Counted from the stretch's first letter, positions 44,994 through 61,970 are shown. The stretch is DNA of 64,000 bases from a virus (IMGVR_UViG_3300031992_000076:13904-77903), one strand, 5' to 3'. The notes: a model not told the origin generated them from the letters alone. Translations and numbers: made by a program.

Positions 44994-45115
44994 TCTCAGG
45001 CAGGGACTCGAACCCTGCTCTTCCGCTATTCCACCGACTGACTTGACTGCCAGGTTGCCAAGGTTTCATTCTCTCCACGCACTTTAAGTCTTCCGACTCT
45101 CTATGCACTTTGAGC
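44994..45115 (-). ncRNA. T-arm-bearing structured RNA, homologous to 61648-61794
   Basis: GCAGGG-UUCGAGU-CCCUGC T-arm, CUUGG/UCAAG stem, AGUC-GGAA-GACU hairpin; ends approximate. Confidence 0.55.
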
Positions 45116-45123
45116 GGGCATAA

Positions 45124-45194
45124 CAGCGGTTAGTGGAGTCGGACCACTCTAATCTGGGTCAAAGCCAGCTGCACTGCCGATGTGCTAAACCGCT
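45124..45194 (-). tRNA. tRNA-Gln(UUG), atypical T-loop
   Basis: AGCGGUU/AACCGCU acceptor, loop CUUUGAC, T-loop UCCGACU; no encoded CCA. Confidence 0.8.
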
Positions 45195-45204
45195 AAAATT
45201 AATT

Positions 45205-45468
45205 TTAAAAATTATGACGATATCTATCTCCCCAAAAATAGTCCCCTTTAACAAGATAAGTATCATCTTCTAAGAGGTCTACTTGAGATATATATTCTTT
45301 TTTACGAAATAAACCATATTCATTTTTCCAAGTGTGCTCAAATTGCACACCATAAATTTGACCATGATTGGTATAAACTTTGATTACAGTTTCAGGATAT
45401 CTAGAATCTGTTAATTCTGTATAAAAATGGTCGCCTACTTTAATGCTATTTAATTCTTCAATCTTCAT
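45205..45468 (-). CDS. Hypothetical protein
   Basis: 87-aa ORF with AAGGAG RBS. Confidence 0.7.
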   Translation of the reverse strand: MKIEELNSIKVGDHFYTELTDSRYPETVIKVYTNHGQIYGVQFEHTWKNEYGLFRKKEYISQVDLLEDDTYLVKGDYFWGDRYRHNF

Positions 45469-45628
45469 TCTGCTTCTCCTTTTTTAAGGCTATAACAACC
45501 AATTCCACACATCATTATAAAAAATATAATTATTAAACTTGAAATTAATTTATTCATCTTCTTTTTTATATGTTTTATGTATAATAGATAATATTTTTTA
45601 ATAACCGCAATAAAATCTTTACTTTTTA

Positions 45629-45790
45629 CTACTCTTCGAGCCATCGCCATCTAAGATGCCACCCTAAAAAATGAATAGAAATATGTAAATTTTTCTTACA
45701 ATAATATGGTTGATTTATTTGTATTGCAATAGTTGGCAGTATGAATACCCAATCCCATGCCGTTAGAAATGTAAATTCGCTAAATTTCAT
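45629..45790 (-). CDS. Small Trp-rich hypothetical protein (53 aa)
   Basis: MKFSEFTFLTAWDWVFILPTIAI...FLGWHLRWRWLEE. Confidence 0.55.
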   Translation of the reverse strand: MKFSEFTFLTAWDWVFILPTIAIQINQPYYCKKNLHISIHFLGWHLRWRWLEE

Positions 45791-45799
45791 TTTTTCTCT

Positions 45800-46046
45800 C
45801 TATCCAAGTGGAATATAATAAATCATTAAAATTGACCAAATAATATATATAGTCCAAATCAATGTACTAGCTATTATTCGTATTGTTTTTTTCTTCTTCA
45901 TTTTTTTTGTCCTGTATTTTAAGATATATAGCAACTATTATTGTAATTATTGCAAACAGTAATATAAAAAGTATTCTACCTAATCCTGGGTCACGTTCAA
46001 AGCTAAATATATCCTCAAGAATTCTTATCCATTGTTCATGTGTCAT
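45800..46046 (-). pseudogene. Two-TM membrane protein gene frameshifted at a poly-A tract
   Basis: As written it stops after 59 aa; deleting one A from the A-tracts at 45886-45908 gives an 81-aa two-TM ORF ending at TAG 45800. Confidence 0.5.
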
Positions 46047-46189
46047 TTTATATCGTCCTCTGCTAATCGTTCTTTACGCGCATATATTTTTAAAATATCT
46101 GCTATAAGCTCTGGAAATGATATATTTAAATCCTCAGTCATATCACATAAATAATCGTATACGGCATATTCTACTACTGATTTATTCAT
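46043..46189 (-). CDS. Small hypothetical protein (48 aa)
   Basis: MNKSVVEYAVYDYLCDMTEDL...; ATGA overlaps at both ends. Confidence 0.55.
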   Translation of the reverse strand: MNKSVVEYAVYDYLCDMTEDLNISFPELIADILKIYARKERLAEDDIK

Positions 46190-46674
46190 TCTACTACTCC
46201 TAGATAATACTTCTTTATACGTTCTTCACCAACTCTATCAACTGCGGTTTTCGCATCTTTCTCACTTGCAAAGTATATAGATGTGAATTTACTTCTAAGA
46301 TTATAGTCTATAAGAATTTCTCGATTGTGAAAATCATACACAATACTGTAGTGAGGTACAGTTCCGTCCCATTTAGCATCACTAGGTTCTGCAAACTCTT
46401 TAAGTTCTGCCAAGACTTTAAGTTTTTCTCGTGCAAACCTTCCTTCTTCCCAAGTCTTAAAACAGTTACCAATGGCATAACAATCATAGTCATAATTCGA
46501 GTCATTCCATCTATGCGGTACTATTGCTAGCAGACCATCACTCCTCATATTGTAATAATGGTCGTCAATTTCGGGCTTCCATCTTCCTGAATCTTCTTCA
46601 ATTTCAACCTTTTTAAGGACTTCAATCTCATCTTGAAGCGCTTTCATTTTTGCTTCGTACTCTGAACGTTTCAT
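46186..46674 (-). CDS. Hypothetical phage protein
   Basis: MKRSEYEAK...WKPE...GNCFKT...IYFASE..A..A. Confidence 0.75.
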   Translation of the reverse strand: MKRSEYEAKMKALQDEIEVLKKVEIEEDSGRWKPEIDDHYYNMRSDGLLAIVPHRWNDSNYDYDCYAIGNCFKTWEEGRFAREKLKVLAELKEFAEPSDAKWDGTVPHYSIVYDFHNREILIDYNLRSKFTSIYFASEKDAKTAVDRVGEERIKKYYLGVVE

Positions 46675-46693
46675 TATTTTCTCACTTTCTATA

Positions 46694-46891
46694 TTATTGT
46701 AAATGTTGTGCAATATAACTAATAAAACTCCAAATAAATAAAATTGTAATTGTTACAATTATCCAACCACCAGTAGAAGTTTTAAAATTATAAGACGACT
46801 TTTTCCGACAAGTTTGAATTATATCTTTAATTGCTGATACAGTCCATACACTATATGCAAACGATAGCATCCATATCCATAAATATTGCAT
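46694..46891 (-). CDS. Small two-TM protein
   Basis: Two hydrophobic segments. Confidence 0.6.
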   Translation of the reverse strand: MQYLWIWMLSFAYSVWTVSAIKDIIQTCRKKSSYNFKTSTGGWIIVTITILFIWSFISYIAQHLQ

Positions 46892-46893
46892 TT

Positions 46894-60190: not shown

Positions 60191-60193
60191 ATA

Positions 60194-60266
60194 TGACTCG
60201 TAGGAGAATTGAACTCTCTTTCTTGAGGATGAAAACCTCACGTCTTAGCCATTGGACTAACGAGCC
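60194..60266 (-). tRNA. tRNA-Glu(UUC)
   Basis: GGCUCGU/ACGAGUC, UGAGG/CCUCA, loop UUUUCAU. Confidence 0.9.
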
Positions 60267-60271
60267 AAAAT

Positions 60272-60385
60272 AATAAAGCAAATATGCGTGCGCTTGATAG
60301 ATGGTACCTATCATTCTCTTGTGTAAATAAAACAAGCGAGATCCAATTTTCTCTAAAGCGTAAACGTGTTACCATTTGCTTTATT
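60272..60385 (-). ncRNA. Unassigned cloverleaf-like RNA candidate
   Basis: Perfect 12-bp terminal inverted repeat AATAAAGCAAAT enclosing three hairpins. Confidence 0.5.
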
Positions 60386-60388
60386 AAA

Positions 60389-60461
60389 TCACTTAGACCA
60401 GATTCGAACTGATGTTACTAGCCTGAGAAGCTAGTGTCCTGGGCCTCTAGACGACTAAGCG
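60389..60461 (-). tRNA. tRNA-Glu(CUC)
   Basis: CGCUUAG/CUAAGUG, CUAGC/GCUAG, loop UUCUCAG. Confidence 0.9.
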
Positions 60462-60618
60462 TAAATATGCCCGCTATACCTCGCGGGTGGGAGAGGTTTC
60501 GTTTGCTTTTAACGACTTCAAACAGTTGCACTCTACTCTGTTGGTCAAAAATTACTTCCTTTTATGAGAAAGGAAAAGTAAGAAAATTGAAACAGTTCTT
60601 TTTTTATCTTACATATAT

Positions 60619-60647
60619 ATTATATCATAAATTTTTAAAAATGTCAA
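60619..60647 (-). promoter_or_regulatory. Sigma-A-type promoter for the tRNA/ncRNA/DUF2828 unit
   Basis: TTGACA-17-TATAAT, TG extension. Confidence 0.85.
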
Positions 60648-60662
60648 GTTAAGATAATTTAA

Positions 60663-60941
60663 TTAGTTCTCAACAACAAATTCCCACATAAGTTCTTCAC
60701 GTAATGTGTCCTGCGCTTCTGCTACTGCATACTCATATTCATCCTCAGAATCATAATCTTCTTCATTGGGATAGTCATCATAACTTTGAGGATCATTTAA
60801 TACATCTGGAAGATATTCTGTATTAAACCAATCGTCTGCAATTTTAATGGCTTCTTCATCGCTCTCTGCTTCAAATTCATAATAATCTGAATTCCATTCC
60901 ATCAAGCCATCCCATGCTTTAACTGTATATTTCCTCTTCAT
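60663..60941 (-). CDS. Acidic hypothetical protein
   Basis: 92 aa, very Asp/Glu-rich; AAGGAG RBS. Confidence 0.7.
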   Translation of the reverse strand: MKRKYTVKAWDGLMEWNSDYYEFEAESDEEAIKIADDWFNTEYLPDVLNDPQSYDDYPNEEDYDSEDEYEYAVAEAQDTLREELMWEFVVEN

Positions 60942-60986
60942 ATTTTCTCCTTTTATAAAATACTATCTTAACTTTTTAATATAAAA

Positions 60987-61058
60987 CAGACCCTCTAGGA
61001 TTTGAACCTAGACCATCGGTTTTGGAGACCGAGGTACTGCCAATTATACTAAAGGTCT
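60987..61058 (-). tRNA. tRNA-Trp(CCA)
   Basis: AGACCUU/AGGGUCU, CUCGG/CCGAU, loop UCUCCAAAA region with CCA anticodon. Confidence 0.9.
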
Positions 61059-61061
61059 ATC

Positions 61062-61970
61062 GCGAGGCTTAACCCTCGCCGTAGGAAATTATTCCTAGAG
61101 TTCCCCGACTTTTGATTTTAACAGGCTTCGGGTGGTGGGACCTCTATGAGCGTAGTTACTTTCTTCAGGACGAAAATTTCTTCTACCCCAGCCCGCGCAT
61201 TTTTAATTACCTAGCGTTTCAGATACTTTTTAGCATTAGTTGTTTTACGGCGGGAGTGGAACGTTTGCTAGCTTTCCTCTGATCCGAGAAGCGATTAATA
61301 ATAAACATATGCATCTATTTATTACCTCTACTATCTCTTTGTGGATTTCTACCACTCTCCCCATAAAACAACTAATACATTCACGCATAGTCCATTAGTA
61401 TCATGGGCTTTAGGATTCACTCTATATAGCCGAAGTCGCTTTTCATGCTTCCCTACTTATAGAGGATGTTTAATTTCTTTTATTCCGCATTACACATCTT
61501 GCGGTTTTATTTAATTAAGAGGAGTTTTCAGCGGAGTCTCAACCTAGCTCCTCACTAGACCGCCTTGGGACGCGTATCCCTTTACGTTAGCCGCGCTTCC
61601 GCCTAGCTCAGTGACGTGTGAATCCCATCACACAGACCGCCCCAGAAGGACAGTAAAGGACTTGAACCTTTATCTTCACTATTTACTAGCCTGTTGACTT
61701 TATTGCGGATGCCAACCAAACCCGCTCGTTTGCAAACTACACTTCCTACTTTTGTTTCTCGAAGTTCTCCCGTGTGTGCGAGTAATCTCCGTCCATTTCT
61801 ACGACATCTTTAAGCTTTTTGGCAGCCATGTGAGGAGTAGCAATGTTCCACAATCTCATACGCCAAGGATTTCTACTTTATCCTCAAAGTTATGGTATGT
61901 CTATATCTTTATGTAAAGACTTTATTACGCTTTAGACTCCACTTTTAGAAAGCGCTTTGGCTTTATACTT
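61062..61970 (-). ncRNA. Large ornate ncRNA candidate (GOLLD/ROOL-like)
   Basis: ~900 nt with no ORF of 60 aa or more, GC-richer than genome, many stems incl. a 24-bp long-range helix; flanked by tRNAs. Confidence 0.55.
61648..61794 (-). ncRNA. T-arm-bearing structured RNA, homologous to 44994-45115
   Basis: GGACGG/CUGUCC terminal stem, UAAAGG-UUCAAGU-CCUUUA T-arm, GUUGG/UCAAC stem. Confidence 0.55.

What the first reader, a model, noticed from the sequence alone, without database searches (positions are those of the whole stretch)
44994..61794. Second pair of homologous T-arm RNAs lacking D and anticodon arms
Seen: 44994-45115 and 61648-61794 both end AAUAG(C/U)G(G)AAGA-[5-6 bp]-GUUCRAGUC-[stem]-acceptor-like strand. 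Both contain a covarying hairpin CUUGG...UCAAG versus GUUGG...UCAAC with a loop starting CA(A/U)CC..GCA. Inference: a new tRNA-like class, reminiscent of the tmRNA tRNA-like domain without the mRNA part. It might bind SmpB, EF-Tu or the Ro-like protein, or provide RNase P/Z processing signals.
Basis: partly seen in the sequence, partly recalled or inferred. Interest (0 to 1): 0.7.

Follow-up and report, generated by a model that had tools for sequence, protein, structure and literature searches.

The report
Rearranged tRNA mimic inside phage RNA
One of the two "T-arm RNAs" is a whole tRNA look-alike in scrambled order (T arm, closed acceptor hairpin, D arm), plugged into a larger, abundant non-coding RNA of a sheep-gut phage that also encodes a Ro60-shaped protein. 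The other is an unconserved T-arm hairpin, and its kinship with the first is unproven.

Summary
Both minus-strand sites carry a canonical T arm preceded by the same 12-13-nt motif. The pairing of the two sites and the reading do not hold as written.

RNA2 does not stop at 61648. The stretch 61681-61609 folds as a circularly permuted tRNA-like domain: an anticodon-stem-like closing helix, a 5-nt variable loop, the T arm, a 7-bp acceptor stem closed by a loop, and a D-like hairpin. The D arm was missed because it lies downstream.

This 73-nt block is conserved in one metagenomic relative. It is missing as a unit in another, which has a small hairpin at that place. The block therefore sits on the tip of a hairpin of a larger conserved RNA (about 61860-61520) that follows tRNA-Asn in four phage lineages. 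That RNA has 10-30 times more k-mer depth than the protein genes in sheep-gut metatranscriptome contigs.

The architecture matches the tRNA-like module of YrlA Y RNAs. A protein with a Ro60 fold is encoded 1.9 kb downstream. Rfam's YrlA, tRNA and tmRNA models all fail to match.

RNA1 has no homologue, no acceptor stem and no D arm, and matches the RNA2 models only at chance level (E 0.6-0.9).

This scan has noted permuted tRNA mimics beside DUF2828 genes on other DNA before.

The parts
61609..61681 (-). RNA2 core: a circularly permuted tRNA-like domain of 73 nt. In RNA order: closing helix 5' strand 61681-61677; variable loop 61676-61672; T arm 61671-61655; closed acceptor hairpin 61654-61636 (7 bp, 5-nt loop 61647-61643); D-like hairpin 61633-61616; closing helix 3' strand 61613-61609.
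   Evidence: The RNAfold minimum-energy structure of the 73 nt is exactly this four-way junction. ARAGORN at default settings calls the re-permuted construct a tRNA. The block is 92% identical in L040, and every difference is in a loop or keeps a pair. It is absent as a unit in L037. Pair probabilities are 0.9-0.99 in a 201-nt context.
61520..61860 (-). Host non-coding RNA that carries the domain on the tip of a short stem. It includes hairpins 61732-61717 and 61716-61693 and a long-range GGCGG/CCGC helix.
   Evidence: 81-87% identity to L037 and L040/L036. It always lies 3' of tRNA-Asn(GUU). RNAalifold finds 10 pairs kept through changes on both sides. An exact 474-nt contig (61404-61877) has depth 133.5 in RNA run X4, against 2-10 over the protein genes. 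No Rfam family matches.
61789..61794 (-). Upstream GGACGG, which could pair instead with the acceptor strand 61653-61648.
   Evidence: 6 of 7 positions pair. Pair probability is 0.03 in a 201-nt context and 0.56 in a 351-nt context. It is missing in L040, which keeps the domain, and in L037, which lacks it.
45001..45030 (-). RNA1: the shared 13-nt motif (45030-45018) plus the T arm (45017-45001).
   Evidence: T-stem pair probability is 1.0.
44964..44990 (-). RNA1: a 10-bp hairpin that follows the T arm after 10 nt.
   Evidence: Pair probability 1.0.
45031..45122 (-). RNA1 upstream part, which begins right after tRNA-Gln. CCGCU (45117-45113) may pair with AGCGG (45027-45023) around two or three hairpins.
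Evidence: No homologue was found in any locus.
45123..45195 (-). tRNA-Gln(UUG), directly 5' of RNA1.
61975..62050 (-). tRNA-Asn(GUU), 5' of the host RNA. This order is conserved.
58227..59711 (-). Ro60-like protein (DUF2828 + DUF7788 + vWA), same strand, 1.9 kb downstream of RNA2.
   Evidence: Pfam and PHROG hits. The AlphaFold model has pLDDT 85.8. Its 12 best PDB fold matches are all Ro60/Rsr/TROVE, with E 2e-7 to 2e-5 and TM 0.47-0.63.

Best explanation
RNA2 is not a free-standing, arm-less tRNA fragment. It is a complete tRNA-like fold written in permuted order. An anticodon-stem-like helix opens into a 5-nt variable loop, a canonical T arm, a 7-bp acceptor stem capped by a loop, and a D-like hairpin with a GGG loop. 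This is the layout of the tRNA-like module of bacterial and phage YrlA Y RNAs.

The 73-nt module is grafted onto the tip of a small hairpin of a larger structured RNA. That RNA follows tRNA-Asn in several rumen-type phages and is abundant in RNA libraries. The module is optional: one relative has only a tetraloop-like cap at that place.

Inferred, not shown: the T loop and D loop dock as in tRNA, giving an L-shaped knob. The knob either recruits tRNA-recognising proteins (modification or processing enzymes, or the phage's own Ro60-like protein encoded in the same operon) or protects the host RNA from exonucleases. Both roles have been proposed for YrlA.

RNA1 is a different object. It is a T-arm hairpin between tRNA-Gln and another tRNA-like RNA, with no closed or open acceptor stem, no D arm and no detectable relatives. 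It is most likely a remnant or offshoot of a tRNA-like gene that shares part of its ancestry with RNA2 (hairpin, linker, T arm). It is not a member of the same structural class.
For: Shown:
- The minimum-energy fold of 61681-61609 is the permuted cloverleaf.
- ARAGORN at default settings accepts the re-permuted sequence as a tRNA.
- L040 keeps the module at 106 bits. Its acceptor loop differs in length (10 against 5 nt). U.G becomes U-A in the closing helix, and G-C becomes G.U in the D stem.
- L037 lacks exactly this block.
- Among all T arms in about 400 kb of related loci, only the window and L040 have a perfect 7/7 downstream acceptor partner in non-repetitive sequence.
- The host RNA is conserved, lies in the same place next to tRNA-Asn, and has covarying helices.
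- RNA-library contig depth is 111-200 (X3) and 91-142 (X4) over 60775-62076, against about 2-10 over the genes. The DNA runs show about 25 over these bins, close to their level over the protein genes.
- The neighbouring protein has a Ro60 fold.
- YrlA layout (T arm, closed acceptor, D arm), location within 4 kb of Ro60 and same strand are described in PMC4201824.
- A canonical permuted tRNA mimic in L040:5575-5694 gives a weak YrlA hit.
- For RNA1.
Against: - Only two distinct sequences carry the module, so covariation rests on three compatible changes.
- Rfam YrlA does not match, even in a 201-nt search at E<=10.
- No Ro-binding terminal stem was found around RNA2. The 'stem + ACAGCAA' handle seen in this phage's own Y-like RNAs is also absent.
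- In a 351-nt context the alternative pairing with the upstream GGACGG is as probable as the closed hairpin, 0.56 against 0.42.
- The U8 and A14 equivalents are not canonical.
- The expression data are assembled contigs from one study. They give no strand, no ends and no proof that DNA was absent.
- No binding partner was tested.
Confidence: 0.62

Rival explanations
1. RNA1 and RNA2 are two homologous members of a new class of about 120-150-nt RNAs, made of a T arm plus a free acceptor end without D or anticodon arms. They would act like a tmRNA tRNA-like domain (SmpB or EF-Tu binding) or as RNase P/Z signals.
For: The 12-13-nt motif and the T arm are shared. RNA1 is the top non-self hit of the RNA2 profile. 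The alignment of the last 45 nt is reached by 7 of 2000 shuffles. The third pair of RNA2's acceptor is a G.U wobble, as in tRNA-Ala and tmRNA (read).
Against: - RNA2 has a D-like arm and a closing helix downstream, and its acceptor is closed.
- RNA1 has no acceptor partner.
- E-values of 0.59 and 0.9 are not significant.
- There are no tmRNA hits.
- The module is absent in L037, while the supposed 'body' is kept.
- Candidate tag frames are not conserved (read).
Confidence: 0.08
2. RNA2 is a linear 'long tRNA-like' RNA of 147 nt. GGACGG at 61794 pairs with 61653-61648 as a normal open acceptor stem around a large insert, like the 113-130-nt insert-bearing tRNA-like RNAs beside Ro-like genes in relatives.
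For: 6 of 7 positions pair. Pair probability is 0.56 in the 351-nt context. L037 lacks both the GGACGG and the module. The relatives do hold many such long tRNA-likes with perfect 7-bp acceptors.
Against: L040 keeps the whole module but has no upstream partner. It keeps the downstream one, across a loop of different length. The covariance model of the long-tRNA-like family gives RNA2 only 17.8 bits, below every true tRNA in the window. There is no canonical D arm after 61794. The MAFFT alignment shows 61794-61780 to be non-conserved.
Confidence: 0.15
3. RNA1 (and, less likely, the RNA2 T arm) is a non-functional leftover of a tRNA gene's 3' half, kept only as a stable hairpin in a processed transcript. 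The similarity to RNA2 is then chance plus the universal T-arm consensus.
For: No homologue of RNA1 turned up in any collection searched. It has no acceptor or D arm. The similarity statistics are marginal. tRNA fragments are common in prokaryotic genomes (PMC9897764, abstract only).
Against: The T arm is perfect, lies on the transcribed strand, and is embedded in 388 nt of densely structured non-coding RNA between tRNA-Gln and another tRNA-like RNA. The similarity to RNA2 is colinear over 61 columns. L006 has a 68-nt mini tRNA-like with a similar linker and T loop at the same place after tRNA-Gln.
Confidence: 0.3

Closest known systems
YrlA, the tRNA-like Y RNA bound by bacterial and phage Ro60/Rsr (Rfam RF02553; Chen et al. 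2014, PMC4201824)
   Same: Permuted tRNA-like module in the order variable region, T arm, acceptor stem closed by a loop, D arm. Encoded on the same strand within 4 kb of a gene for a Ro60-fold protein. Found in phages.
   Different: - No match to the Rfam model.
- The protein is DUF2828/DUF7788+vWA, not a Pfam TROVE hit.
- No terminal Ro-binding stem was found.
- The module is an optional insert in a 340-460-nt host RNA, not half of a roughly 100-nt Y RNA.
DUF2828-associated 'handle' RNAs (closing stem + ACAGCAA box with tRNA-like cargo), seen here in the relatives' loci and noted earlier in this scan. As far as I could find they are unpublished: the paper search for DUF2828 with phage returned 0.
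   Same: Same phage group and the same operon as the Ro-like gene. The cargo can be a permuted tRNA body, as in L040:5575-5694.
   Different: RNA1 and RNA2 lack the handle. RNA2's module sits on a different, larger RNA.
Phage T4 RNAC and RNAD ('species 1' and 'species 2' stable RNAs, 139 and 119 nt) at the end of the T4 tRNA cluster
   Same: Small stable RNAs of similar size inside a phage tRNA operon. rnaC ends in a canonical T arm plus an acceptor-like strand. Their function is still unknown (PMC3014915, PMC9697503).
   Different: Sequence similarity does not go beyond the T loop. The T4 RNAs have free ends and no permuted D arm. T4 has no Ro-like gene in this region.
tmRNA tRNA-like domain, including two-piece (permuted) tmRNA
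   Same: T arm stacked on an acceptor stem whose third pair is G.U. The gene order is permuted, with the acceptor 3' strand before the 5' strand.
   Different: ARAGORN and Rfam find no tmRNA. There is no conserved tag frame and there are no pseudoknots. The module is dispensable in L037.
GOLLD and ROOL large phage RNAs
   Same: Large structured phage RNAs next to tRNA genes. ROOL was named after its rumen origin, and GOLLD can enclose a tRNA (both from my own knowledge and from scan note e1-5847832).
   Different: Rfam returned no hit other than tRNAs on the host RNA region at E<=10 or on its homologues at E<=1.

Membership tests
canonical tRNA | Detected by tRNA finders or the Rfam tRNA model at threshold | tested here: not met
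   ARAGORN finds none at default settings. Rfam tRNA gives 18.8 bits on RNA2 in a 201-nt search, below the gathering score of 29. It gives nothing on RNA1 at E<=10.
canonical tRNA | Acceptor stem formed by the RNA's own 5' and 3' ends, and an anticodon loop | tested here: not met
   RNA2's acceptor is closed by a loop, and its anticodon stem opens into the host RNA. RNA1 has no partner for its 3' strand.
canonical tRNA | T arm with GGUUCRANYCC | tested here: met
   Both sites.
YrlA (RF02553) | Covariance-model score at or above the gathering score (69 bits) | tested here: not met
   No YrlA hit at E<=10 in 44000-64000 or in 61560-61760.
YrlA (RF02553) | Permuted tRNA-like domain: T arm, then a closed acceptor stem-loop, then a D arm | tested here: met
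   Met for RNA2. Not met for RNA1.
YrlA (RF02553) | Terminal stem with a Ro60-binding helix formed by the 5' and 3' ends | tested here: inconclusive
   None was recognised around the module, and the ends of the host RNA are unknown.
YrlA (RF02553) | Encoded near a Ro60 orthologue and on the same strand | tested here: met
   1.9 kb upstream of 59711-58227 on the same strand. The protein has a Ro60 fold.
YrlA (RF02553) | Bound by the Ro60-type protein | not testable with these tools
   Needs co-immunoprecipitation.
DUF2828-linked handle RNAs (stem + ACAGCAA) | Conserved AUCAUG/GUGAU-type stem followed by an ACWGCAA box | tested here: not met
   Family model R1 gives RNA2 17.8 bits and RNA1 10.6 bits on the T arm only. 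The handle scan finds only the two Y-like RNAs at 59936 and 59815.
tmRNA | tmRNA model match, resume codon and a conserved tag frame | tested here: not met
   ARAGORN -m finds 0. No tmRNA family appears at E<=10. The frames differ among the window, L037 and L040.
T4 RNAC/RNAD | Sequence homology to T4 rnaC or rnaD | tested here: not met
   Only T-loop words match.

The most novel reading that the evidence does not exclude
The 7-bp closed acceptor hairpin of RNA2 has a G.U wobble at its third pair (an alanine-identity look) and a loop of variable length. RNase P might cut that loop, as happens to M. smegmatis YrlA. After CCA addition the large host RNA would become a two-piece, chargeable tRNA mimic. 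That would be a phage RNA that enters tRNA or ribosome pathways, a tmRNA-like or decoy function on a new scaffold. It would belong to a previously undescribed family of 340-900-nt phage RNAs linked to tRNA-Asn.
Probability: 0.05. Interest if true: 0.85.

Novelty: new variant of a known kind. Interest (0 to 1): 0.45.

Why it matters
Y RNAs with tRNA-like modules are known partners of Ro60 in bacteria and a few mycobacteriophages. What the tRNA mimic is for remains open.

Here the same permuted tRNA fold appears as a plug-in domain. It is present in some phages and absent in others, on a different, larger and highly abundant RNA, in a phage whose Ro-like protein belongs to an uncharacterised family (DUF2828). 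This suggests that the tRNA-like knob is a portable module that phages move between RNA scaffolds. The presence/absence pairs (window and L040 against L037) offer a natural way to test what the module adds.

The result also corrects a recurring annotation trap. A T arm followed by an 'acceptor strand' is not always a 3' end, because the missing arms may lie downstream.

Tried and rejected
- The phage collection (blastn, distant mode) returned nothing for either region.
- Relatives could not be found through the 1038-aa, 174-aa or 87-aa neighbour proteins in IMG/VR.
- The near relative from a Logan run gave contigs that stop short of RNA2 (L025, L032). The 92-aa neighbour gave contigs that were too short, or no DNA.
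- An intron-bearing tRNA was considered. ARAGORN intron mode gives only implausible calls that overlap tRNA-Gln.
- A tmRNA reading was prompted by a UAGUUU|GCAAACGA resemblance to the E. coli resume region (my own recollection). I rejected it: no model hit, the frames are not conserved, and the T-arm block is absent in L037.
- A cargo-less 'handle' reading of hairpin 61716-61693 (loop UCCGCAA against ACAGCAA) was rejected, because it lacks the conserved handle stem.
- A sequence search of PDB with the DUF2828 protein found nothing relevant. Only the fold search showed Ro60.
- RNA1's bin shows slightly raised depth in the RNA runs. It cannot be separated from the neighbouring tRNA-like RNA or from look-alike contigs.
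- The loose ends carrying adapter sequence at 61961 and 61893 are only hints of RNA ends.

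
Full report
CONTEXT. The window is part of a 77.9-kb IMG/VR virus record, about 52% complete. It is held by sheep-gut metagenome and metatranscriptome runs. It has about 32% G+C, and every tRNA gene and long ORF looked at lies on the minus strand. ARAGORN and Rfam find eight ordinary tRNAs on the minus strand and nothing at the two sites. RNA1 (45115-44994) starts right after tRNA-Gln(UUG). RNA2 (61794-61648) lies in a 915-nt ORF-free gap between tRNA-Asn and tRNA-Trp. A DUF2828/DUF7788/vWA protein is encoded at 59711-58227. Its AlphaFold model (pLDDT 85.8) has Ro60, Rsr and a phage Ro60 as its twelve best PDB matches, all over the full length. 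'Ro-like' is therefore justified by fold, not by sequence.

THE OBSERVATION. The letters are as described: canonical T arms and the same 12-13-nt motif in front of them. The statistical case for homology is thin.
- blastn gives no hit between the two sites.
- The upstream parts align no better than 6.5% of shuffles overall, and 0.35% for the last 45 nt.
- A profile made from RNA2 and its true homologues ranks RNA1 first among non-self hits in the window, but at E = 0.59.
- A covariance model of the RNA2 domain gives RNA1 12.6 bits (E about 0.9), like unrelated T arms.
- The 'covarying hairpin' is real in RNA2. It is kept in three other phages, with a G.U to A-U change. In RNA1 it is out-competed by another pairing and has probability 0.01.

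WHAT RNA2 IS. A metagenome scan used a two-hairpin motif shared by RNA2 and L020. It returned contigs whose non-coding stretch after tRNA-Asn(GUU) is homologous to the window. L040/L036 are 87% identical over 61753-61585. L037 is 81% identical over 61859-61689 and again over 61564-61520. In the alignment the T arm belongs to a block (61681-61609). The block is present and 92% identical in L040. L037 lacks it as one piece and has a 3-bp stem with an AAAA cap at that place.

The block folds on its own into:
- a 5-6-bp closing helix;
- a 5-nt linker;
- the T arm;
- two nucleotides;
- a 4-6-bp hairpin with a GGG-containing loop;
- two nucleotides;
- the closing strand.

This is a cloverleaf read from the anticodon stem outward. 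I rejoined the pieces in tRNA order with an artificial anticodon loop, and ARAGORN then calls a tRNA at its default threshold.

The differences between the window and L040 all fit the fold. The acceptor loop is 5 against 10 nt. U.G becomes U-A in the closing helix. G-C becomes G.U in the D stem, and the D-loop letters differ. Among all T arms in about 400 kb of related DNA, only these two have a perfect downstream 7-mer partner in non-repetitive sequence.

Its pair probability is 0.03 in a 201-nt context and 0.56 in a 351-nt context. L040 keeps the module without any such upstream partner, so I prefer the closed form. A switch in this particular phage cannot be excluded.

THE HOST RNA. The conserved core (about 61860-61520) has its own hairpins and a long-range helix with compensatory changes. 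It matches no Rfam family. In two metatranscriptome runs from one study, contig k-mer depth over 60775-62076 is 111-200 and 91-142, against about 2-10 over the protein genes. The DNA runs show about 25 over these bins, close to their level over the protein genes. An exact 474-nt contig of depth 133.5 spans the whole module. These are contigs, so they show presence and relative abundance only. They show no ends and no strand.

The rest of the 915-nt gap looks like a mosaic of separate modules. The stretch 61490-61380 recurs in L017, and 61377-61245 recurs in L021. A strain in the RNA runs replaces 61234-61376 by 21 nt.

HOW IT MOST LIKELY WORKS. Shown: the fold, its modular presence or absence, its abundance, and its neighbourhood.

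Inferred: the module forms a tRNA-like L. It serves as a docking or protection knob, as discussed for YrlA in PMC4201824. In YrlA the T arm, a closed 'acceptor' stem-loop and the D arm follow one another. The RNA lies within 4 kb of Ro60 on the same strand, it carries tRNA modifications, and in M. smegmatis RNase P cuts the 7-bp acceptor.

The window's phage family is rich in related devices. Loci around Ro-like genes hold many 113-130-nt RNAs with perfect acceptor, D and T arms plus a conserved hairpin and an ACAGCAA box, with strong covariation. L040 has a textbook handle-plus-permuted-tRNA RNA with a weak YrlA hit. RNA2 lacks that handle. I therefore rate a direct Ro-like partnership as plausible but unproven, at roughly one in three.

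WHAT RNA1 IS. The robust elements are the T arm and a 10-bp hairpin 10 nt further on. The motif it shares with RNA2 is predicted to pair upstream (45117-45113 with 45027-45023, p about 0.35). In RNA2 the same motif pairs downstream. RNA1 has no acceptor partner and no D-like hairpin. No homologue was found in any collection or locus. L006 has a 68-nt anticodon-arm-less mini tRNA-like with a similar linker and T loop at the same place after tRNA-Gln. RNA1 may be a decayed or remodelled version of such an element. I cannot show that it is a discrete or functional RNA.

COMPARISON AND NOVELTY. The closest family is YrlA. The architecture and neighbourhood tests are met. The model-score test is failed, and the Ro-binding stem was not found. 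RNA2 therefore works like a YrlA tRNA-like module but is not a member by the available model.

T4 RNAC and RNAD are the classical analogue: stable RNAs of similar size in a tRNA cluster. RNAC ends in a T arm, and their function is unknown. There is no homology. tmRNA is rejected.

Earlier notes of this scan report permuted tRNA mimics next to DUF2828 genes in many other genomes. I reached the permuted reading before seeing them. What this case adds is a module grafted onto a larger, handle-less host RNA, with natural presence/absence variants.

VERDICT. RNA2 is a new variant of a known kind. RNA1 is unresolved.

Noticed in passing
L005-L026 (e.g. L010:5348-5465, 5567-5684, 5765-5878; L013:7472-7591, 7596-7722): Relatives carry many 113-130-nt RNAs with perfect 7-bp acceptor, D and T arms. 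In place of the anticodon region they have a 45-60-nt insert with a conserved hairpin (AUCAUG...GUGAU, invariant U.G) followed by UAACAGCAA. In the alignment, 18 of 23 pairs show compensatory changes. They flank the Ro-like gene, and the Rfam tRNA model hits them with a large insert.
   Followed up: partly
window 61860-61520; L037:1345-1804; L040:3282-3941; L039:2518-3120: A structured non-coding RNA with no Rfam match is conserved directly 3' of tRNA-Asn(GUU) in four phage lineages. It is very abundant in sheep-gut RNA libraries.
   Followed up: partly
window 61490-61380 and 61377-61245: Two further non-coding modules in the same gap are conserved in other phages' tRNA arrays: L017:7974-8084 (78%) and L021:5063-5190 (73%). 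A strain in the RNA runs has 61234-61376 replaced by 21 nt.
   Followed up: no
window 62414-62374, 62186-62142, 60654-60609: A repeated element of about 45 nt, also repeated in L020 and L025, where assemblies of relatives break. It is probably a reiterated promoter of the tRNA/ncRNA operons.
   Followed up: no
L019:8713-8763: A 51-nt linear mini tRNA-like (acceptor, short D-like region, T arm, no anticodon arm). Its acceptor strands have the same sequence as RNA2's closed acceptor hairpin, including the G.U at the third pair.
   Followed up: no
L006:7673-7740: A 68-nt tRNA-like without an anticodon arm (7-bp acceptor, D arm, 10-nt linker beginning AAUAG, 6-bp T stem), immediately 3' of tRNA-Gln(UUG). 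This is the same position as RNA1.
   Followed up: partly
L040:3942-4014 and L036:929-1001: A tRNA with a CUA anticodon (amber-reading; ARAGORN labels it 'Pyl') directly follows the host RNA. Its Rfam tRNA score is just under threshold (27.2 bits).
   Followed up: no
window 45123-45195: The tRNA-Gln(UUG) has an unusual T loop (GGUCCGACUCC in place of GGUUCGAAUCC).
   Followed up: no
window 59946-59833 and 59828-59755: Two Y-like RNAs just upstream of the Ro-like gene. Each has a terminal stem (GUGAYG.../...CRUCAU), an ACWGCAA box right after the 5' strand and a GUU tail. This is the same stem-and-box as in the relatives' insert-bearing tRNA-likes, but with the ends at the stem.
   Followed up: partly
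L033 (phage T4 70908-71171): T4 rnaC ends in a canonical T arm followed by an acceptor-like strand that only partly pairs with its 5' end. rnaD ends in ...CACCA. Their roles are still unknown after 50 years.
   Followed up: partly
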